Origin: a virus | Taxonomy: Duplodnaviria > Caudoviricetes | Reading direction: 5' to 3' (one strand) | DNA: 36,662 nucleotides | Virus record (IMG/VR): IMGVR_UViG_3300020045_003757 | Location: 1-36,662 of that record | In this document: in pieces, positions 2,559-26,333 of the stretch | Layout: every line of letters begins with the position of its first letter | How positions within the stretch are numbered: position 1 is the stretch's first letter | Notes under the pieces: model-generated | Told to the model about the DNA's origin: nothing | Database searches by the model: none | The model's input: the letters and a program-made list of their open reading frames with translations, nothing else | Translations under genes and position numbers: made by a program

Positions 2559-2659
2559 TTAAGCCTAGTAAAAAAACAAAACAAAAAGTTGCAAACGCTG
2601 TAAAGAAATTATTGAATGTCAATCAACACTCAAATAACACAAAGAAGACTAATAGCTGA
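2555..2659 (+). CDS. Small basic ORF, 34 aa (MIKPSKKTKQKVANAVKKLL...)
   Basis: ATGA overlap with the upstream stop and fills the gap before the next gene. Not in the ORF track. Confidence 0.3.
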   Translation: MIKPSKKTKQKVANAVKKLLNVNQHSNNTKKTNS

Positions 2660-3344
2660 GATTCTTGAATGGGCAGATGCTCACGAGATGATTTTTAAAT
2701 CAGGCTATGGTGATTTCTTGCAGTTGTATGGTGAAGATGAAAATCTTTACCCGTACTTCATGGTTAACATCTCAAACGGAACGGAGACGGCTTTTTATTT
2801 TAGGTATCAAATAGAAGTCTTTGTTGCGATGTGGGTTTGGGATGACAGAACAAATCAACTACGCTCTGAAAGTGATTCAGAATTAATCTTAAGAGACTTT
2901 ACAAACACGATTAGGATTTCACCACGTTGGCAACAATTCTCACGGATAGATTCTGTTGAGATGCCAAAGCGAAAAGTAATTGAAAGAGGTGGTGATAAAG
3001 TGACGGGTTGGGGTGTTACTATTAATCTTTCGGTAAAAAAGAAAGCAAGTATCTGTGATATTGAAGCGTTACTTCCTACTTATGATTTCGACACTCAATC
3101 AGTAACAACAGCAACAGTAACAGGAAATGATACTTTAATGGTTTCACTTGCTTGTGGCGAGGCTTATGAGTTTAATATTAAAGACCAAAACGGGAATTTA
3201 GTAGGCACTTGGAATGCTCTAACAAATACATGGACTGTTAATGTTGGTGGTGGTGGTTCATTCACTTATAGTTTTTACGTTGACGGAGTTGACACGGGTA
3301 GCGATGTAGTGGTGGACGGAACAGATATAGATATACTTTGGTAA
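2616..3344 (+). CDS. Virion structural protein, tail-terminator/neck-like
   Basis: Synteny after the adaptor. LYP...SDSELILRDF...VTGW pattern plus a C-terminal beta-rich extension. Confidence 0.5.
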   Translation: MSINTQITQRRLIAEILEWADAHEMIFKSGYGDFLQLYGEDENLYPYFMVNISNGTETAFYFRYQIEVFVAMWVWDDRTNQLRSESDSELILRDFTNTIRISPRWQQFSRIDSVEMPKRKVIERGGDKVTGWGVTINLSVKKKASICDIEALLPTYDFDTQSVTTATVTGNDTLMVSLACGEAYEFNIKDQNGNLVGTWNALTNTWTVNVGGGGSFTYSFYVDGVDTGSDVVVDGTDIDILW

Positions 3345-3345
3345 G

Positions 3346-4728
3346 ATGGCAAATATTTTAAATTTAGGATTATCGGCAGTAGCCACAGGAACAGTAGACG
3401 GTATTACAGCGACTTACTCCCCTGCAATTACATTAACTGATAGACGAATTGTTTATTTAAGAACACTCGGAACAAACACGGTAACTGCACCAACTTTTAA
3501 TCCTAACGGATTAGGAGCGCAAACGATTACTAAAGGTGGTGGTTCTGCTTTGGCTGTTGGTGATTTGGACGGTGATGTGATTTTGATGTATGATTTAGCC
3601 AACACGAATTGGGAACTTTTAACACCTAAAGCGGTTTCATCAAGCACTCCAACACTTGCTCAAGTATTAGGAGCAGGGCAAAGTGTTAATGGTCAATCAA
3701 TATTATCAGCAAATAACCTTAACTACTTACAGTTGTTTGACGCAGGTGTTGTCGTTGGTTTTGATGATGGTTTAGGTGTTTTGGGTGACGTAAGTTTGGA
3801 CGCAACAAAATCGCAACTTTATTTTGAAGACCCGTCAGGCTCAGGATATGTAAGGATTATAGCAACAGACAATACAGTTTACCATGATTTATTATTAAAA
3901 CTTAGTGCACCAAACGTAAACCTACCACAAGAAACTGCCTCGCTAATTTTATCAACTGACGCGAGTAAAAACATTAAAGGTCTTTCAACAACTACCTATC
4001 CGTCGTTAACAGAACTTGCTTATGTGAAGGGTGTAACATCTGCAATCCAAACACAGTTAAACGGAAAAGAACCACTTAAAGGTTCTGATGATAACTACGT
4101 TACAGACGCTCAACTTGTTGTTATTGGTAATACAAGCGGAACGAATAGCGGAAATGAAACAACAGCAACTTTAGGGGCAACAATAAACAGCGCAACTTCG
4201 GCAACTCCAAATGATACTGATTTAGTTCCTGTTATTGAAAGCTCTGTTGTAAAGAAAAACACTTGGACACAAATTAAAGCTTTCTTAAAAACTTATTTTG
4301 ATACGCTTTATGCTAGTCAAGGATTTACACTTCAATCAGCATCAACAGCAGTTAATCCAGGTGCGCTATCAACACACTCATTTGCGGATGCGAATATTGG
4401 TACATCAACTACTTATAATTCTTTAGTTAGAATATACGTGCCAAAAGCTTGTTATTTAAAAAGCGTTAAAGTATTTGTAAAGGTTGCAGGAACATTGGCT
4501 GTTGGTGGTCAAAACTCAACATTCTCATTAGTGTTAAACGGAGTAACTGATAACGATGTTTCGACAACTGTAAAACATGATAGTACTGGCACGCTAGTTT
4601 CAAAAGATAATTTCAATGTAGCTTTTGCGAATGGTGATTGGTTTAACTTCAAGATTGTTCACCCGACTTGGGGTACACCACCAACATCTGTTTCTTATAC
4701 GGTAACTTCTTATTTTGAAAACTTATAA
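3346..4728 (+). CDS. Tail fibre / receptor-binding-like protein
   Basis: Thr/Ser/Gly-rich with the fibre motifs TPTLAQVL and TELAYVKGVTSAIQTQLNGK. Ends in a beta-sandwich-like C-terminus. Confidence 0.65.
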   Translation: MANILNLGLSAVATGTVDGITATYSPAITLTDRRIVYLRTLGTNTVTAPTFNPNGLGAQTITKGGGSALAVGDLDGDVILMYDLANTNWELLTPKAVSSSTPTLAQVLGAGQSVNGQSILSANNLNYLQLFDAGVVVGFDDGLGVLGDVSLDATKSQLYFEDPSGSGYVRIIATDNTVYHDLLLKLSAPNVNLPQETASLILSTDASKNIKGLSTTTYPSLTELAYVKGVTSAIQTQLNGKEPLKGSDDNYVTDAQLVVIGNTSGTNSGNETTATLGATINSATSATPNDTDLVPVIESSVVKKNTWTQIKAFLKTYFDTLYASQGFTLQSASTAVNPGALSTHSFADANIGTSTTYNSLVRIYVPKACYLKSVKVFVKVAGTLAVGGQNSTFSLVLNGVTDNDVSTTVKHDSTGTLVSKDNFNVAFANGDWFNFKIVHPTWGTPPTSVSYTVTSYFENL

Positions 4729-4730
4729 CA

Positions 4731-4925
4731 ATGAGCGCACAACAACTGATAGATATTCTTTTAGGTATTCTCGGAGTAGGAATACTAGGCATGATTTCTT
4801 TTACTGTAAAATACTTGAAAGAAATAGCGGCAAACTTGAATGAGTTAAATAAAAACTTTGCTGTAATGATTTCTAGACACGACGATTTAGAGCGCAGGGT
4901 TGAGGACTTAGAAGATAAAGTATGA
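4731..4925 (+). CDS. Single-TM coiled-coil protein, holin-like
   Basis: N-terminal TM segment and coiled coil. ATGA-coupled to the lysin gene. Confidence 0.5.
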   Translation: MSAQQLIDILLGILGVGILGMISFTVKYLKEIAANLNELNKNFAVMISRHDDLERRVEDLEDKV

Positions 4926-5350
4926 GATATACAGCAGAACTTTGTAGAACGTTTAGAAACGATAAACAGGTTTTAGGACAAATTGATGTCTTAGATGAAA
5001 ATGGAATAGTTTTTACTTGCTTTTCTTTAGAACTCCCTGATTTAAATCATGATGGTATTACAGACAACGAACGCAGGGAGTCTTGCATACTTGAGGGTAT
5101 TTATAAAATCAAGAAAGAAAACCATAAAAAGTTTGGTTGGTGTTATAGGGTTTATGATGTTCCAAATCGTGACGGTGTTTTAATTCATGCAGGAGTAAAT
5201 TTCACTCACACTTTAGGTTGTATTTTGCCCGCAACAAATCAAAAGGATTTAAATAAAGATGGCGAATTGGATAACACTGAAAGCAAAAAGGCACTAGCTA
5301 AATTAGTAGAATACGATTTGAATGAAATAAACATCTATTACAGACAATGA
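4922..5350 (+). CDS. DUF5675-family putative endolysin
   Basis: Motifs CFSLELP, SCILEGIY and VPNRDGVLIHAGVNFTHTLGCIL. Flanked by membrane proteins. Confidence 0.75.
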   Translation: MRYTAELCRTFRNDKQVLGQIDVLDENGIVFTCFSLELPDLNHDGITDNERRESCILEGIYKIKKENHKKFGWCYRVYDVPNRDGVLIHAGVNFTHTLGCILPATNQKDLNKDGELDNTESKKALAKLVEYDLNEINIYYRQ

Positions 5351-6756: not shown

Positions 6757-6783
6757 CACAGTTGTTACTAACAAGGTTGTTAC
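6753..6783. promoter_or_regulatory. Tandem palindromes TAACA-N4-TGTTA (candidate operators)
   Basis: GTAACA-cagt-TGTTAC (6753-6768) immediately followed by TAACA-aggt-TGTTA (6769-6782). Confidence 0.35.
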
Positions 6784-6840
6784 AAAAAATATTTTTAAAA
6801 TTGTGCAACCAATTCAAATTTATTTACGTTATTTGCATTA

Positions 6841-6937
6841 GTTACGACCGCGAATCATAACAAAGAAATTTTTTGGGAGGGGTAATACTCTTTGAAATGC
6901 ACCATTCAACTTCGCGGTCGGGGTGCATTTCTGTTTG
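6841..6937 (+). ncRNA. Structured leader RNA, element A (5' hairpin complementary to terminator-hairpin loop)
   Basis: CGACCGCGAA (6845-6854) is the exact complement of TTCGCGGTCG (6911-6920). The latter lies in the loop of the stem GAAATGCACC/GGTGCATTTC. Confidence 0.55.
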
Positions 6938-7252
6938 TGGTCTGCGAGAAATTGGCTGGTTGCACAAATAAGAATACTAGTGGTACAATGAGGACTCACA
7001 ACCACAGGGATAGCACAAAGGTAAAAGTCCCATGATGAGAGGTGTTGACAACGACACTAAAAGTAAGTTACCAAGACCAAACACGTTGTTGTTGATTTGG
7101 TTCACATGATGGGGGATTGATGCTTAGACGCAGAAATTTAGACCGTTGGTGTGGGATGTTCGGATTTAACGCAAGTTATTTTCTAGGACATTCTCACACC
7201 ACACTTAAAAAGATTGAAGGCATACCGCAGTTTAAGTTTAAACCAATAGATT

Positions 7253-7405
7253 ATGGATAAGGGATGGTTTGAAAAAGAGAGGTACAAGAAATATCTCAAA
7301 GAAAAAGAGTTAAAGAAAATAGAAACTAAAAAAGAGGGCGAAAGAAAAAAGAGGCTTCGCAAGATTTTAGACAAAATTTGTCCTAAAAAGTTTGACACTT
7401 TCTAA
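7253..7405 (+). CDS. Small Lys/Glu-rich protein, 50 aa (MDKGWFEKERYKK...)
   Basis: Read manually. Co-oriented with its neighbours and has an AT-rich start context. Confidence 0.45.
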   Translation: MDKGWFEKERYKKYLKEKELKKIETKKEGERKKRLRKILDKICPKKFDTF

Positions 7406-7429
7406 ATAAATAATCCTTATATTAGCCAA

Positions 7430-7630
7430 ATGAAAGTTTACACTCATCCAAATTGTGACAGCCGATTAACATTAAAAAAAATCAACCGTAATGTTGGAAC
7501 ATTCAATATGATTGATAAGCCTAAAGGACGTAACATAAAAGGCGAAGAGGTTTACCCTGTTGTTATTTTAAACATTGATGGGTTGAATGAGGTTAACACA
7601 ATGATATGGCAACATAAATTACCTTCATAA
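7430..7630 (+). CDS. Hypothetical protein
   Basis: 66-aa ORF ending 1 nt before the next start. Confidence 0.5.
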   Translation: MKVYTHPNCDSRLTLKKINRNVGTFNMIDKPKGRNIKGEEVYPVVILNIDGLNEVNTMIWQHKLPS

Positions 7631-7631
7631 A

Positions 7632-7928
7632 ATGCGACAAAGACACTTAAATTTAATATTCGGAATAGGCTTTATAATTATGCTATGCGTATCTTTGTGG
7701 CCTGATGAAACACCTACGCAAATTCCAACGATTGATTACTCGAAATATGAAGCGAAATTTAATTCGTTACAAGACAGTATTAATCAACTTCGATTACAAG
7801 TAAACACCTTTGAGCAAAAGACCGACACGATTAAACTACAAATCTTAAGAGATGAAACTACTATTAAAAATCTTGACAATAACGGCATTGATTCAGCCTT
7901 TGCAGAACTGCTACGCACAACAAGATAG
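7632..7928 (+). CDS. TM plus coiled-coil protein, spanin-like (inner component)
   Basis: N-terminal TM and heptad coiled coil. Overlaps the next gene out of frame. Confidence 0.5.
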   Translation: MRQRHLNLIFGIGFIIMLCVSLWPDETPTQIPTIDYSKYEAKFNSLQDSINQLRLQVNTFEQKTDTIKLQILRDETTIKNLDNNGIDSAFAELLRTTR

Positions 7929-8226
7929 CATCTGTTTTAGTTATCCTGATGCAAAGAATATTCTAATTCTAGCCAACAAAGGAAAACAAGTTGACTCTTT
8001 AATCTACTTTTTTGATTCTCGAATTGATTTGCTTGAGGAAATTGTAGAACATAAAGAAGAACAATTAGAACTCGCACAGGAACTAATTTCCGAACAATCA
8101 ATAGTTATAGCCGACTTAACAGCGAAGTTGTCAGAATCGGAACGAAAAAGGCTAAATCTTAAACGTGGTGCAATTTCTTTGTTTGGAGTTATAGGAATTG
8201 AAACTTTGTTTTTGATTTTAAAGTAG
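7852..8226 (+). CDS. Signal peptide, coiled coil and C-terminal TM protein, spanin-like partner
   Basis: Signal peptide ending CYA|QQ, then a coiled coil and a hydrophobic C-terminus. Confidence 0.45.
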   Translation: MKLLLKILTITALIQPLQNCYAQQDSICFSYPDAKNILILANKGKQVDSLIYFFDSRIDLLEEIVEHKEEQLELAQELISEQSIVIADLTAKLSESERKRLNLKRGAISLFGVIGIETLFLILK

Positions 8227-8463: not shown

Positions 8464-8655
8464 TTATTTTATTAAATGAATATGGTCAGCGCACCATTGC
8501 GCTTTATTAAGTGGGTCTAATGATAGGTACATTTTCAACCAAGAATCTTGGGTCATTGCGTACTTCATTAATGCTTTTACTTGTTCAAATTTATCATCTG
8601 AAAACAGTTCTAATTTACCCTGTTCTTTTAGAATAGATTTTATTTCTCTTTTCAT
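8464..8655 (-). CDS. Hypothetical protein
   Basis: Coupled to the upstream ORF by a 4-nt overlap. Confidence 0.6.
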   Translation of the reverse strand: MKREIKSILKEQGKLELFSDDKFEQVKALMKYAMTQDSWLKMYLSLDPLNKAQWCADHIHLIK

Positions 8656-9146
8656 TCCTTATTTTTTAGTATTAATTTTTCAGTGTATCTCAATAAAAAA
8701 TCATAATCAGATTCTTCAGAAGTTCGAGGAATATAATAATGTTCTTTTAAAAATCTCTCAGCCTCGACAAGCGAAGGGCGTTTGGTGGGTACATTTCTTG
8801 AGATTTCATTACAAACAACGAACTTACCGTGTGCCTCAAGAACATATTTGCCTTCTTGATTTTTTCCAATATAAAAAAGACGACCTTCCCACCAACCATT
8901 TGTATCTTTCCACATTACCATTTCCCCCGCCTTAATCTCCTCGTCTTGAATAGGTTGTTTAACTTCTTCTTTTGGTAGCATTGATTGGACTATTTTAATT
9001 GCTTCGTCAGTCGCTTGATTATGGCTTCTAAATTCGATTGTATCTTTAGAATACTTTTTAACGTACTTATTAAAATCCAATTTCTCAATCACCTCATTCA
9101 ACACTTTTCGTGTTTCGTCTTGTCTGATTTCGTTTTCTGTTTTCAT
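8652..9146 (-). CDS. Hypothetical protein
   Basis: 164-aa ORF with an A-rich start context. Confidence 0.65.
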   Translation of the reverse strand: MKTENEIRQDETRKVLNEVIEKLDFNKYVKKYSKDTIEFRSHNQATDEAIKIVQSMLPKEEVKQPIQDEEIKAGEMVMWKDTNGWWEGRLFYIGKNQEGKYVLEAHGKFVVCNEISRNVPTKRPSLVEAERFLKEHYYIPRTSEESDYDFLLRYTEKLILKNKE

Positions 9147-9187
9147 ATTTAATTTTGTTTAGTTTTTTAATCAAAAGTTAATCTTTG

Positions 9188-9288
9188 CACGTGAGACGGG
9201 ATTCGAACCACCTCTAAGGGTCATCATATCTATTAGTTTGCAAGCCCTTTCTGGGCATCTAATCGCTTTGCCGTTAAGCTACTCACGT
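9188..9288 (-). tRNA. tRNA-Cys(GCA)-like scaffold with two 15-nt insertions (atypical or pseudo-tRNA)
   Basis: Acceptor ACGTGAG/CTCACGT, D-stem GCTT/AAGC, anticodon stem ATTAG/CTAAT with TT-GCA-AA, T-loop TTCGAAT. No encoded CCA. Confidence 0.6.
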
Positions 9289-9307
9289 ATTCAATGTCAA
9301 TTCAGAA

Positions 9308-9460
9308 AACGGGTGACAGGATTTGATACCTGTACGGTTTTGCATTACCGATTTTCGGGGAGTGATATTCGTTACCTTTCTTTTTTACTCACGAAGAATA
9401 AAACCTAATCGTGTCGCCATAATCCCTTTTCACGACCTACATTATTTCTGTCACACCCGT
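9308..9460 (-). ncRNA. tRNA-shaped RNA of about 150 nt with enlarged anticodon loop and very large variable region
   Basis: Acceptor ACGGGTG/CACCCGT, T-arm ACAGG-TATCAAAT-CCTGT, stems GGTCGTG/CACGATT and GGTTTT/AAAACC. Confidence 0.5.
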
Positions 9461-9474
9461 AATCTGAATCAATG

Positions 9475-9624
9475 TTATTTTTCAATATTGTTAACCAATT
9501 CCAATTTAACAATTTCAAGTATTCCAATAACCTCAGATTTTGTTGGGTTACCTGATATTATTCTCTCAATGTTTTTCTCTGTAACATTAATTGTAATAGT
9601 AAATTCTTTATTTTTCTTTGCCAT
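9475..9624 (-). CDS. Small hypothetical protein, 49 aa (MAKKNKEFTITINV...)
   Basis: Read manually. Co-oriented with the block. Confidence 0.5.
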   Translation of the reverse strand: MAKKNKEFTITINVTEKNIERIISGNPTKSEVIGILEIVKLELVNNIEK

Positions 9625-9658
9625 ACTTCTTTATTTTTTAATTTAATAAGTGAGTGCT

Positions 9659-9937
9659 TTACTCACTTGGGTTAAATGCGTCATGTGACTCTCTCAAAAG
9701 CTCCGTAGTCTTATCAAATCCGATAACGTCAGAAACTTTGCCAATGAACAATTGAAAGACAAGTTTTTTTTGTTTCATTTCCTCATTCTCTTTTTGTAGG
9801 GATTGAGTGGTTTGGTCGGAGTATTCTTGAATCTTAGGTTTAATCAAAGTACAAGCAAGGAATAAATCATGTTCATCCCATGCAATACCTATAATTTCAC
9901 CGCATAATTCGTCTAAGTTTTTATTAGTGTCGCTCAT
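9659..9937 (-). CDS. Hypothetical protein (MSDTNK start module)
   Basis: Shares its first 19 nt with 10131..10538. Confidence 0.65.
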   Translation of the reverse strand: MSDTNKNLDELCGEIIGIAWDEHDLFLACTLIKPKIQEYSDQTTQSLQKENEEMKQKKLVFQLFIGKVSDVIGFDKTTELLRESHDAFNPSE

Positions 9938-22843: not shown

Positions 22844-23551
22844 ATGAAGATAGGTGCAGTCATTCCAGTTAAAGGTAGGCTTCCACTTTTGAAGCACACA
22901 ATCGAACGTCTTAAAAAAAAGAACGGAGTTGATTTAGTTATCTGTGTTGGTGATTCTGAAGACGAAGAGTTAACATCTTTGAAAGCTGGTGCGCTATTTG
23001 TTTATCATGCTAACATTCCACTCGGTAAGAAATGGAACGCAGGATTTCAAGAAGCAAAGAAGCATAACATTGATGTTGTTTTATTCGTTGGTAGTTCAGA
23101 TTGGCTCAGTGATAATTGGTTAAGCTACTCACTACCTTACATGACTGAATATGATTTAGTGGGTAAGTCTGATTTCTACATGGTAGATATTGCTGACAAG
23201 TTCCGTGCTTGTCATTGGGCAGGATATGGAAAAGGCGAAAGAGAAAAAGAGCCGATTGGAATTGGAAGATTAATTTCAAGCCGTGTCTTAGACCAAATGA
23301 ATTGGAAACCGTTTCAAGATGAGAAGGGTCATAACATGGATTACATGATGTTTCAAAACGTTGGTAAGTTAGGTGGTAAGATTGGACTTATTAAACAGGA
23401 TGACATGAAAGCGTTATCTATTTCAACTAATCAATGGAACAACCTACATAAGTTTGAACAACATTGGAACGATGAAATTCCAAGCAAATCAATAAGACTA
23501 AATGCCGAGATTCTAATCAAAGAATTTCCTGAACTTAAATTAATTTTCTGA
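22844..23551 (+). CDS. Glycosyltransferase family 2-like protein
   Basis: AVIPVKGR, PLGKKWNAG, degenerate DxD region FVGSSDW, GIGRLIS. Confidence 0.75.
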   Translation: MKIGAVIPVKGRLPLLKHTIERLKKKNGVDLVICVGDSEDEELTSLKAGALFVYHANIPLGKKWNAGFQEAKKHNIDVVLFVGSSDWLSDNWLSYSLPYMTEYDLVGKSDFYMVDIADKFRACHWAGYGKGEREKEPIGIGRLISSRVLDQMNWKPFQDEKGHNMDYMMFQNVGKLGGKIGLIKQDDMKALSISTNQWNNLHKFEQHWNDEIPSKSIRLNAEILIKEFPELKLIF

Positions 23552-24060
23552 TGCACCCTAAAAGTTTTTACTTCAACTACCAAGCGAATGATGAGATTGC
23601 ACCGCTTGATGTGATGATGAATAAGTATGTGAGCAATCACAACCCTAAATCTGTTTTAGACTTTGGTTGTGGTGTAGGTAAGAACCTAAGATACTTACTA
23701 GATAACAACGAAGGGTTGACGGTTTGTGGTATTGATATGTCGTTTGTTAATATCATTCATGCAAGGGCAAAGAACCGAATTGAATTTTTAGTGTTAGGTG
23801 ATGAATATCATTTATGCCGTTTAAGAGAGTTCGATGTAGTTATGACAACCTCAGTGCTTTGTCACATTCAGGACATCACCGAGATAGTAAAAGAGTTCAA
23901 ACGAATAGCAAAGGATTCAATTATCATCTGTGAAACCAAAGACATTAAAGGCGAGTTCTATTACGAACATGATTACGAGTCGTTTGGTTTTGAGTTCGTG
24001 GGATTGCAAATGGTAAGTGGGAATGATGCACTTTATAAAATATACCGATGGAAACAATAG
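23551..24060 (+). CDS. Class I SAM-dependent methyltransferase
   Basis: Motif I VLDFGCGVG, then GIDMS and FDVVMTTSVLCHI. Confidence 0.9.
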   Translation: MHPKSFYFNYQANDEIAPLDVMMNKYVSNHNPKSVLDFGCGVGKNLRYLLDNNEGLTVCGIDMSFVNIIHARAKNRIEFLVLGDEYHLCRLREFDVVMTTSVLCHIQDITEIVKEFKRIAKDSIIICETKDIKGEFYYEHDYESFGFEFVGLQMVSGNDALYKIYRWKQ

Positions 24061-25112
24061 AATGTAAACGATGCCTTTTTGATTCTTCTTTTGCCACAAT
24101 AAAAGAAGACGGCATTTGTGAATATTGCGATATTCACGATGAGTTGGAACGTCAAGCCAACCCTAAAGACTTTTACAAGCAGCTTGATAAAATAAGCAAA
24201 AAGAAAGGTAAGTACAATTGTATCATTGGTATTTCAGGCGGTAAGGATTCAAGCGCACTTACATACGCTGCCGTTAAATGGTGGGGACTTAAACCACTTG
24301 TGATTCATTTTGATAATCATTGGAACGGTTCAATTGCTGAATCAAATATGTTAAACGTCATAAAGACTTTGAATGTAGATTCAATTCGTTTTAATGTTAA
24401 TAAAGGTGAATACGATACATTGAATGAGGCTTTTTTAAGTGCGGGTGTTCCTGATGCTGACATACCGAATGATATTGCAATGACAAAAATCATGTATGAG
24501 ACTGCTAATAAATACGGAATTAAGTACATCTTAAACGGTCACGACTTTAGAGAGGAAGGGTCAACGCCTCGCGGTTGGACTTACATGGATGCTGAGTATA
24601 TTCGTTCTGTTTACTCATGGTTTACAGGTGGCAGAACATTAAAGAACTATCCTTTATTTACATTCAAAGACCAAATCAAATACTCTTTAAAAGGAATCAA
24701 GAACATACGCCCTTTTCATTACATGGTTGATAGAACTGAATTGGACGCTGAGATGATTGAGTTTTGTAAATGGCAAAGTTACGGGGCAAAGCATGGTGAG
24801 AATTTATACACGGAGTTTGTCGGCTCGGTATTACTTCCTAATAAATTCAAGATTGATAAACGTATTGTTTATTTGTCGGCTCAAGTTCGTTCAGGATTAA
24901 TCAGTAAAGAAAATGCAAGGATTCGTTTTGACTACAAAGCACCAATTGATTTGGCTAAGTTTCCTGCAGAATGGATGCAACAAGTAGGTGCAGAGAAACG
25001 AACGCACAAAGATTTCAAGACATACAACTTTAAAAAGTACCGACCTTTAATTTGGCTTATGGCTAAAATGAAAATAGTTCCTTACACGTTCTACAAAAAA
25101 TATTGTTTCTAA
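24048..25112 (+). CDS. N-acetyl sugar amidotransferase (WbuX/PseA/WbpG-like, PP-loop ATPase)
   Basis: CKRC...CEYC, PP-loop IIGISGGKDSS, HFDNHWN and DKRIVYLSAQVRSG. Confidence 0.85.
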   Translation: METIECKRCLFDSSFATIKEDGICEYCDIHDELERQANPKDFYKQLDKISKKKGKYNCIIGISGGKDSSALTYAAVKWWGLKPLVIHFDNHWNGSIAESNMLNVIKTLNVDSIRFNVNKGEYDTLNEAFLSAGVPDADIPNDIAMTKIMYETANKYGIKYILNGHDFREEGSTPRGWTYMDAEYIRSVYSWFTGGRTLKNYPLFTFKDQIKYSLKGIKNIRPFHYMVDRTELDAEMIEFCKWQSYGAKHGENLYTEFVGSVLLPNKFKIDKRIVYLSAQVRSGLISKENARIRFDYKAPIDLAKFPAEWMQQVGAEKRTHKDFKTYNFKKYRPLIWLMAKMKIVPYTFYKKYCF

Positions 25113-25741
25113 TGCTAATCACCGCAAATATTGCGACGTATAAACCGCGTAAAGAATCGCTCAAACGAATGCTTGAATCAATCGAAAAGCAATTCGATGT
25201 AATCAATGTTTATGATAATGAGGTGATGCCCAACCTAACAGACAACGGTAAATTTATTAGACTAGAAACAATCACAGAACCTGAATACTATTTTACTTTA
25301 GATGATGATTTGATTTATCCACCTGACTATGTTTCAAAGACAATCGAATCAATTGAAAAGTACGGTTGTATCATAGCCCATCACGGCAGACAATTACAAG
25401 GAACGTTCCTAGATTATTACACAATGCACAAAACGTTTCGTTGTTTGAATGATGTTCATTTAGCAGAGATTGTTGACGTGTGTGGTACGGGAGTCACAGC
25501 ATTTAGAACGGATTACTTTCATCCTAAAGGACTTGCTTTTGATAAACGACTAAGAATGTCAGACCTCATATTTTCGCTTGAAGCCGCTAAACAAAAAAAG
25601 ACAATCGGTGTTGTCCCTCACGATTGCGGATGGATTAAACCGATAATGAATAAAGAATCAATATTTGACACTGAAAGTTTAAAAGGTAACGCAGTGCAGA
25701 ATGGAATTGCAAACGAAATATATTTACTCAATCATGGCTAA
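25112..25741 (+). CDS. GT-A fold glycosyltransferase
   Basis: ANIATYKPR, DNGKF, YYFTLDDDLIYPPDYV, GTGVTAF and RMSD. Confidence 0.8.
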   Translation: MLITANIATYKPRKESLKRMLESIEKQFDVINVYDNEVMPNLTDNGKFIRLETITEPEYYFTLDDDLIYPPDYVSKTIESIEKYGCIIAHHGRQLQGTFLDYYTMHKTFRCLNDVHLAEIVDVCGTGVTAFRTDYFHPKGLAFDKRLRMSDLIFSLEAAKQKKTIGVVPHDCGWIKPIMNKESIFDTESLKGNAVQNGIANEIYLLNHG

Positions 25742-26333
25742 AGAAGAAATAATAAATATCCCTGCACACATTGACGAAATGAGAATTAATCATTTGCCGT
25801 TCTTGTTGGAACTTACAAAATTCAAAGATGAAGAGCCAAGCATAATTGATAAGTGCAAACTAAATTCCATGTTCACAGGAATACCACTTGTGAAAATGAA
25901 ACGCTATTCAGCAAAGGATAACAAACAACTATTCAATACAATCAATGAGGCTTACTCTACGTACGTGCAAAAGCCTTGCCCTTTAGAATTAACTTATGAA
26001 GGCGTAACTTACACGTTCCGATATGATTTTACTTTGCATCCTGTTGATTGGGATGATGACTATAAATCAGCGCAACCCGAATTTGAAAACAATCCTATTG
26101 ATATTGTTTCATTCGCTTACATTGAAAAAGGAATGGCTTATGGTGAATCAGATGAACAACAAAACCCAAAAAACCCAAGACACGTAAGAAACGAAGTATT
26201 CAAACGTAACCTTCCTTTATCAACGTTCTTGGATATACAAGGTTTTTTTTTGCTGAGTTACAACGTTCTGCAACTATACTTAACAACGGAAAAAATCCAA
26301 CACCTACAAAAAAAGGTAGAAAGCCTAAGATAA
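25734..26333 (+). CDS. Tail assembly chaperone-like protein with a -1 frameshift product extending to 26488
   Basis: GGT TTT TTT TTG slippery run (T9 at 26243-26251). The -1 frame stays open for 78 further codons to TAG at 26486-26488. Confidence 0.65.
   Translation: MAKEEIINIPAHIDEMRINHLPFLLELTKFKDEEPSIIDKCKLNSMFTGIPLVKMKRYSAKDNKQLFNTINEAYSTYVQKPCPLELTYEGVTYTFRYDFTLHPVDWDDDYKSAQPEFENNPIDIVSFAYIEKGMAYGESDEQQNPKNPRHVRNEVFKRNLPLSTFLDIQGFFLLSYNVLQLYLTTEKIQHLQKKVESLR

What the first reader, a model, noticed from the sequence alone, without database searches (positions are those of the whole stretch)
9188..9288. tRNA-Cys-like gene interrupted by two equal-length (15-nt) hairpin insertions
Seen on the minus strand: ACGTGAG TA GCTT AACGGCA AAGC G ATTAG [ATGCCCAGAAAGGGC] TTGCAAA CTAAT AGAT ATG [ATGACCCTTAGAGGT] GG TTCGAAT CCCGT CTCACGT G. 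Removing the two bracketed 15-mers (9258-9244 and 9224-9210) leaves a fully paired 71-nt cloverleaf with a GCA anticodon. In this alignment both inserts start ATG and contain a small hairpin (GCCC/GGGC and ACC/GGT). The discriminator is G rather than the U73 used by CysRS, and CCA is not encoded. Inference: intact stems argue against random decay. It could be a tRNA-mimic ncRNA (for example an anticodon-nuclease decoy) or a tRNA with non-canonical mini-introns.
Basis: partly seen in the sequence, partly recalled or inferred. Interest (0 to 1): 0.72.

Follow-up and report, generated by a model that had tools for sequence, protein, structure and literature searches.

The report
Swollen tRNA look-alike in a phage
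A small phage genome carries a 101-base gene that keeps the outline of a tRNA but has two extra hairpins; these are unlikely to be introns, and the gene is most likely a non-decoding tRNA mimic like the unexplained stable RNAs of phages T4 and T5, or a decaying relic of one.

Summary
Only the anticodon-loop insert is statistically solid (56 of 20,000). The T-stem insert is not (13-25% of shuffles) and reads equally well as 12 nt, so 'two equal 15-mers' is not robust. Mini-introns are unlikely: no bulge-helix-bulge motif, no splicing enzyme among the ORFs scanned, probable Flavobacterium-type host. The acceptor A1:U72/G73 is not cysteine-like. No homologue was found, so covariation is untested. 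Swollen tRNA shapes are common in phages (about 1,500 records), and two 88%-identical phages swap their interiors. Twenty bases upstream lies an unnoticed RNA with a manA-like core (9306-9471, below Rfam's cut-off). Best reading (0.45): a non-decoding tRNA-shaped RNA, likely host-processed, likely a decoy; decayed relic 0.35. The scan found this kind before on other DNA.

The parts
9188..9288 (-). tRNA-shaped gene, 101 nt, non-coding, no CCA, discriminator G at 9188
   Evidence: (Rfam tRNA 30 bits)
9282..9288 (-). Acceptor stem 5' strand; pairs 7 of 7 with 9195-9189; first pair A1:U72
   Evidence: pair probability 0.89-1.0
9265..9279 (-). D arm, 4-bp stem, 7-nt loop with GG
9232..9263 (-). Anticodon arm: 5-bp stem (9263-9259 with 9236-9232) closing a 22-nt loop
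9244..9258 (-). Insert 1 at position 31/32, 15 nt, 4-bp G+C hairpin with 5-nt loop; single copy in the genome
   Evidence: (hairpin probability 0.97)
9237..9243 (-). Canonical-looking 7-nt loop with GCA at 34-36
9210..9224 (-). Insert 2 in front of the T loop, 3-bp hairpin; 15 nt (51/52) or 12 nt (9221-9210) with a 7-nt variable loop; single copy in the genome
9196..9209 (-). T loop with consensus sequence and two inner pairs; outer three positions pair only across insert 2
9306..9471 (-). Upstream structured RNA with a manA-like core: closing stem 9460-9454 with 9315-9309, T-arm-like hairpin 9333-9316, different interior
   Evidence: Rfam manA 21.2 bits against cut-off 55.2; shared end pattern retrieves true manA RNAs; 9290-9371 identical in one record of run X1
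9475..9624 (-). 49-aa ORF of unknown function directly upstream, same strand
8652..9146 (-). 164-aa ORF of unknown function directly downstream, same strand
   Evidence: no family

Best explanation
This is a tRNA-shaped phage gene with an enlarged anticodon loop and an extra hairpin before the T loop; it likely makes a stable RNA that is neither spliced nor charged with cysteine and likely acts as a tRNA mimic, most plausibly a bait for host proteins that bind or cut tRNA. Steps: (shown) it keeps acceptor stem, D arm, anticodon stem and T loop, lies in a non-coding gap of a leftward gene block, 20 bases behind a manA-like RNA. (Inferred) both are transcribed with that block; host tRNA-processing nucleases recognise the acceptor/T/D outline and cut the RNA out, which would also trim the 3' end of the manA-like RNA. 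(Inferred) the 22-nt loop cannot decode and G73 with A1:U72 would not suit CysRS, so the frame serves as a protective carrier that displays the hairpins and the GCA loop. (Inferred, weakest) its target is a host tRNA-directed defence or processing protein.
For: Anticodon-arm parse beyond chance (56 of 20,000). 16 of 16 acceptor, D and anticodon pairs are Watson-Crick although no close relative exists among 237 ordinary tRNAs held (best alignment score 42.5 for 71 nt): gaining long inserts without stem-breaking substitutions suggests the shape was kept after decoding was lost (inference). Swollen tRNA shapes are a common phage gene type: about 1,500 IMG/VR records by pattern, several with both an enlarged loop and an enlarged variable region. 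Two phages 88% identical in the flanks carry, at two orthologous places, the same tRNA ends around different interiors (165 vs 129 nt, 126 vs 207 nt). T4 rnaC and T5 RNA1/RNA2 are annotated stable RNAs of unknown function with a T loop and long interior; T4 RNAC was seen on Northern blots (PMC9697503, passages). Engineered tRNAs whose anticodon stem-loop is replaced are processed and protected in E. coli (PMC3401473, passages). Phage tRNAs do counter anticodon nucleases (PMC11464382, passages), though by replacement, not as bait.
Against: No homologue, so no covariation. T stem pairs at only 1 of 3 outer positions, against 3 of 3 in 122 of 133 other swollen tRNA shapes; this could block processing. 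Folding energy is ordinary (z -0.87). One low-depth record with the upstream RNA's 3' half goes on into unlike sequence where this gene starts, so the gene looks dispensable or recently gained. No promoter or terminator signal above chance (sigma-70 scan, may not suit this host). The decoy role has no direct support here, and the two interior-swapping phages are only distantly linked to this one (19-aa match).
Confidence: 0.45

Rival explanations
1. Decaying pseudogene: a phage tRNA or tRNA-shaped RNA that took one or two short hairpin insertions and has no function now.
For: Singleton in all collections searched; T stem broken; no CCA; ordinary folding energy; absent at this place in one related record. 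The second insert may be only a long variable region in front of a mutated T stem.
Against: Acceptor, D and anticodon stems are fully paired and D- and T-loop consensus letters are kept; small phage genomes seldom keep dead DNA long (general knowledge); only 44 of 133 comparable genes encode CCA, so its lack means little.
Confidence: 0.35
2. A damaged member of the phage family with an insert in the 5' strand of the anticodon stem (stem, hairpin, conserved ACAGCAA, then the true anticodon loop). The GCA loop would then be that motif and the second hairpin the former anticodon loop, with about 10 nt lost before the T loop.
For: Same order of closing stem, hairpin and GCAA as in that family; 0.9% of shuffles give hairpin plus GCAA; the middle is 55 nt against 63-73 nt in the family.
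Against: A covariance model of 21 family middles finds untrained neighbours at 25-26 bits but nothing above 2.3 bits within the window element's middle. The model also missed the L002/L069/L321 variant, so it is not very sensitive.
Confidence: 0.08
3. tRNA-Cys with two non-canonical mini-introns that are spliced out to give a working 71-nt tRNA.
For: Unique, clean parse; archaeal tRNA introns are mostly 12-25 nt and occur at odd positions, several per gene (PMC4090602, passages).
Against: No bulge-helix-bulge at either junction; too short for group I splicing (established knowledge); no endonuclease or ligase family in the genome; best terminase matches are Flavobacterium phages at 51%; the product would lack U73, a CysRS identity element (PMC7609411, passage).
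Confidence: 0.04
4. DNA-level footprint: the hairpins are tiny mobile palindromes, or the gene is an attachment-site scar.
For: Earlier scan notes describe such cases in other genomes (unchecked AI notes).
Against: Neither insert recurs in the genome above chance; no local source of 8 nt or more within 8701-9900; no integrase or GIY-YIG family among the ORFs scanned; the inserts are unlike each other.
Confidence: 0.04
5. tRNA-framed antisense regulator whose loops pair with leaders of phage genes.
For: An earlier scan note reports this for another phage (unchecked AI note).
Against: Loop 1 has a 6-nt complement in 6 of 50 leaders (shuffled mean 4.7, p 0.35), the second region in 1 of 50; longest complement anywhere in the genome 8-9 nt. 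Host mRNAs were not tested.
Confidence: 0.04

Closest known systems
Phage T5 RNA1 and RNA2 ('tRNA-like stable RNA with unknown functions', NC_005859) and T4 rnaC (species 1 RNA, NC_000866)
   Same: Paired ends, a consensus T loop and an interior too large to decode; lie beside other stable-RNA genes.
   Different: No sequence similarity (one search did not retrieve them); 101 nt against 125-144 nt; their T stems are intact; they sit in tRNA clusters, whereas this genome has no ordinary tRNA; they are known transcripts, this one is not.
Bacterial and phage tRNA-Cys(GCA)
   Same: 7-nt loop with GCA once insert 1 is removed; cloverleaf lengths.
   Different: G73 and A1:U72 instead of U73; no isotype stands out among 237 tRNAs compared; 30 extra bases.
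Archaeal tRNA genes with several non-canonical introns (e.g. Pyrobaculum; PMC4090602)
   Same: Two short inserts at odd positions.
   Different: No bulge-helix-bulge motif; bacterial-type phage without a splicing endonuclease hit.
manA RNA (Rfam RF01745), for the upstream element 9306-9471
   Same: 5' motif, closing stem, T-arm-like hairpin with GGUAU...AAUCC; similar length; phage location.
   Different: 21.2 bits against cut-off 55.2; interior helices do not align (30-36% identity to 15 representative hits); manA is described mainly from cyanophages and Photobacterium.
Engineered tRNA-scaffold RNAs (Ponchon and Dardel method, as described in PMC3401473)
   Same: tRNA frame carrying foreign structure in the anticodon arm, processed and protected by host enzymes.
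   Different: Artificial; intact T arm; shows feasibility only.

Membership tests
tRNA-Cys(GCA) | GCA in a 7-nt anticodon loop | tested here: not met
   Loop is 22 nt as encoded; 7 nt only after removing insert 1
tRNA-Cys(GCA) | U73 discriminator | tested here: not met
   G at 9188; 10 of 11 tRNA-Cys in the loci have U73
tRNA-Cys(GCA) | Charged with cysteine | not testable with these tools
   Needs aminoacylation assay
Protein-spliced tRNA introns (archaeal type) | Bulge-helix-bulge or relaxed form with a 4-bp central helix at the splice sites | tested here: not met
   2 of 4 and 1 of 4 central pairs; no equivalent register shifts
Protein-spliced tRNA introns (archaeal type) | Splicing endonuclease available in virus or host | tested here: inconclusive
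   No hit in 51 ORFs (PHROGs) or 50 (Pfam), but most ORFs have no family; host inferred from terminase only
Group I tRNA introns | Catalytic core of several helices, far longer than 15 nt | tested here: not met
   Inserts of 12-15 nt; no Rfam intron match
T4/T5-type tRNA-like stable RNAs | tRNA-like acceptor stem and T loop around an oversized interior | tested here: met
   the T stem is interrupted
T4/T5-type tRNA-like stable RNAs | Sequence homology to rnaC, RNA1 or RNA2 | tested here: not met
   blastn of 9185-9292 against 50,697 phage records gave only three 19-20-nt matches elsewhere
T4/T5-type tRNA-like stable RNAs | Position within a tRNA or stable-RNA cluster | tested here: inconclusive
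   No ordinary tRNA in the genome; one structured-RNA neighbour
T4/T5-type tRNA-like stable RNAs | Accumulates as a discrete RNA in infection | not testable with these tools
   No RNA run available to lay
Stem-insert (ACAGCAA) phage tRNA family seen here | Score with the family model of the middle region | tested here: not met
Stem-insert (ACAGCAA) phage tRNA family seen here | Second small stem-loop, 5-nt variable loop and intact T stem behind the motif | tested here: not met
   About 10 nt too short and T stem broken
manA (RF01745), upstream element | Rfam gathering score 55.2 bits | tested here: not met
   21.2 bits; E 0.18 over the window, 0.0027 over 561 bases
manA (RF01745), upstream element | Conserved 5' motif, closing stem and 3' T-arm-like hairpin | tested here: met
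   A pattern of these ends, drawn from the window and the Rfam consensus, retrieved 119 loci; 19 of 20 checked are manA above cut-off
manA (RF01745), upstream element | Interior helices and kissing loops that build oligomers | tested here: inconclusive
   Interior does not align; oligomers need experiment

The most novel reading that the evidence does not exclude
The gene belongs to a widespread, largely undescribed class of phage RNAs that use a tRNA frame as a carrier for exchangeable hairpin modules, swapped between near-identical phages as in an arms race, and acting as baits for host tRNA-cutting defences; here the frame also serves as a processing tag that matures a new, divergent manA-type RNA in a phage of Bacteroidota, far from the cyanophages where cage-forming manA RNAs were described.
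Probability: 0.2. Interest if true: 0.72.

Novelty: new variant of a known kind. Interest (0 to 1): 0.33.

Why it matters
T4 and T5 tRNA-like stable RNAs have lacked a function for decades. If swollen tRNA shapes are a common phage gene class with fast-changing interiors, that question becomes testable by comparing close phages and by challenging tRNA-targeting defences. This particular copy is a weak entry point: it has no homologue, a broken T stem and no expression data. The neighbouring manA-like RNA and the two families noticed in passing are better leads than the element itself.

Tried and rejected
Homologue searches for 9188-9288: IMG/VR pattern with the GCA loop gave 1 locus (L002), a different architecture; patterns on its D-stem type gave 119 loci, from 61 of 64 parts of the collection, none alike by eye; JGI metagenomes 4 loci; GTDB 11 loci, ordinary intron-bearing archaeal tRNAs, long-arm tRNAs or other swollen shapes; phage blastn no real match. 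Relatives via NinG: none. Relatives via the 460-aa protein: 80 loci, mostly short matches; the two closest are fragments that do not reach the element; 75 of the 80 records were searched for tRNA (8 of 29 and 5 of 46 had matches; of the 11 and 6 of 15 matches inspected none resembles the element). manA search over 48 of these records: 0, with no positive control ringing. manA-end pattern in 401 genomes of the phylum of G001: 0. First patterns for the upstream RNA: 0 hits; a mis-specified pattern that did not match the window itself gave 8 hits without any Rfam match. One search was uninformative. Sequencing runs: no RNA holder listed; run X1 does not cover the element. Pairing of either loop with the upstream RNA: p 0.07 and 0.61. 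Weak Rfam isrK and PreQ1 matches are far below cut-off. The 169-aa ORF named 'tRNA methyltransferase' by PHROGs is a generic class I methyltransferase in Pfam beside a glycosyltransferase and I do not link it. No paper describing this element or the stem-insert family turned up in the listings of ten full-text searches; subscription papers are not covered, and the supplements of PMC2864571 and PMC10690425 (not opened) and of the manA preprint (closed) may list related RNAs.

Full report
Setting. The window is a whole 36,662-base virus record with portal, terminase, NinG and NinB-like genes. The best terminase matches are Flavobacterium phages at 51% identity, so the host is probably a Bacteroidota bacterium (inference from one protein). 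The element lies on the minus strand in a non-coding gap between a 49-aa and a 164-aa ORF of a leftward gene block. The genome has no ordinary tRNA.

Observation. Sequence and coordinates are right. Rfam tRNA scores 30 bits; the insert-free 71-mer scores 120 in ARAGORN. With a 4-5-nt variable loop the 15+15 parse is unique and 11 of 20,000 shuffles allow any such parse. Splitting the test shows where the signal lies: the anticodon arm parse occurs in 56 of 20,000 shuffles, while one deletion repairs the T stem in 2,647 to 5,071 of 20,000. Because ATG is doubled at 9227-9222, insert 2 is equally 12 nt with a 7-nt variable loop. The equal length is therefore not a robust feature. The RNA folds no better than shuffles (z -0.87); the acceptor stem and both hairpins dominate the ensemble, D and anticodon stems reach about 0.2, the T stem 0.0.

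Not a cysteine tRNA with introns. U73 is a CysRS identity element (PMC7609411, passage); 10 of 11 tRNA-Cys in the fetched loci have it, while A1:U72 with G73 is commonest in tRNA-Gln (7 of 14). The insert-free frame has no close relative and no clear isotype among 237 tRNAs. Protein-spliced tRNA introns need a bulge-helix-bulge motif and are reported absent from bacteria (PMC4090602, passages); the central helix pairs at 2 of 4 and 1 of 4 positions, and no splicing enzyme family was hit, though most ORFs have no family at all.

No homologue. Pattern scans of IMG/VR, JGI metagenomes and GTDB, blastn of 50,697 phages and tRNA searches of 75 records linked by a virion protein found none. Covariation could not be tested. 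One 151-nt record of run X1, depth 2, is identical over 9290-9371, resembles the window by eye beyond 9371, and goes on into unlike sequence exactly where the tRNA shape begins. If real, a close relative has the upstream RNA without this gene; a single shallow record may be an error.

A common kind of gene. A D arm 44-74 bases from a T loop occurs in about 1,500 IMG/VR records (estimate from 6 of 64 parts). The set mixes long-arm tRNAs, intron-bearing tRNAs of giant viruses and true swollen shapes (sorted by eye). Of 133 distinct ones with a paired acceptor, 122 have an intact outer T stem and 44 encode CCA; this element pairs at 1 of 3. Two phage records 88% identical in the flanks carry at two orthologous places the same tRNA ends around unrelated interiors; they share only a 19-aa match with this phage, so they show the class, not kinship. 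T4 rnaC and T5 RNA1 and RNA2 are annotated stable RNAs of unknown function with a T loop and a long interior; T4 RNAC was detected by Northern blot (PMC9697503, passages). Earlier scan notes reached the same comparison for other genomes (unchecked AI notes). A sub-family with hairpin plus ACAGCAA inserted in the anticodon stem resembles insert 1 in layout, but its model does not score the element.

The neighbour. Twenty bases upstream, 9306-9471 matches Rfam manA at 21.2 bits, below the 55.2 cut-off. It has the manA ends: a pattern of those ends retrieved 119 loci, 19 of 20 checked being manA, and two further variants score 50-51 bits. The pattern was drawn partly from the manA consensus, so this shows shared ends, not descent. 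Its interior does not align. manA was described as a putative cis-regulatory motif of cyanophages (PMC2864571, passages) and recently as forming cages (bioRxiv 10.64898/2026.07.01.735769, parts 1-2 of 5 read). I call it manA-like, not a member.

How it most likely works. Shown: outline, position, lack of splicing signals and of cysteine identity. Inferred: co-transcription with the leftward block; excision by host tRNA-processing enzymes, as happens with engineered tRNA scaffolds (PMC3401473, passages); no decoding. Weakest step: bait for tRNA-directed host proteins; phage tRNAs are known to defeat anticodon nucleases by replacement (PMC11464382, passages), which is not the same as bait. The argument for selection is that 16 stem pairs stayed Watson-Crick while long inserts were gained; the argument for decay is the broken T stem, the lack of homologues and the X1 record. 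I give 0.45 to the mimic, 0.35 to decay, 0.08 to a damaged stem-insert family member, 0.04 each to splicing, DNA footprint and antisense regulation (the last tested against 50 gene leaders without signal).

Novelty. It works like the T4/T5 tRNA-like RNAs but is not homologous to them. A candidate-RNA survey of IMG/VR mentions tRNA-like motifs overlapping tRNA-Cys calls (PMC10690425, passages; supplement not opened). No description of this element appeared in ten searches, which do not cover subscription journals. Verdict: real feature, new variant of a known kind, interest 0.33.

Noticed in passing
window 9306-9471 (-): Structured RNA with manA-like ends and a different interior, directly upstream of the finding; 3' half identical in one record of run X1.
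   Followed up: partly
L004:594-704, L034:594-707, L041:594-711, L044:594-712, L089:294-408, L121:408-526 and about 20 more (alignment A1): A family of phage tRNA genes, often several per locus, with a 35-45-nt insert in the 5' strand of the anticodon stem (28/29 or 29/30): hairpin followed by conserved ACAGCAA, with varied anticodon loops downstream. Acceptor and T stems covary (13 of 16 predicted pairs), the insert hairpin too (6 of 7). Rfam names only tRNA. Could be an unknown intron type or a regulatory arm; stronger lead than the finding.
   Followed up: partly
L002:1490-1602, L069:590-707, L321:694-804 (approx.): A variant of that insert with another conserved motif, in two phages and a genome titled as a cyanobacterium.
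   Followed up: no
L469:1501-1665 vs L480:1501-1629; L459:1585-1710 vs L474:1586-1792: Two phages 88% identical in the flanks carry tRNA-shaped genes with near-identical ends and wholly different interiors at two orthologous places; one has an extra arm in the D loop.
   Followed up: partly
L340:488-674, L429:288-464: A second manA variant just under Rfam's cut-off (50-51 bits).
   Followed up: no
L205 and over 70 near-identical loci; L011/L046/L085 group; L003/L030/L108 group: Recurrent swollen tRNA shapes with closed anticodon stems and loops of 26-46 nt.
   Followed up: no
L325, L330 (about 694-800): tRNA-like D arm and T loop without acceptor pairing in two Bacteroidota-titled genomes, with a conserved middle.
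   Followed up: no
L124:10906-10978 (+): The closest relative by virion protein has a degenerate tRNA at the place that corresponds to window about 6760, where the window has none.
   Followed up: no
window 6760-7630: Long non-coding stretch before the two small ORFs at 7632-8226; no Rfam match at E up to 1.
   Followed up: no
window 22844-26333 (+): Methyltransferase and glycosyltransferase genes between terminase and virion genes.
   Followed up: no
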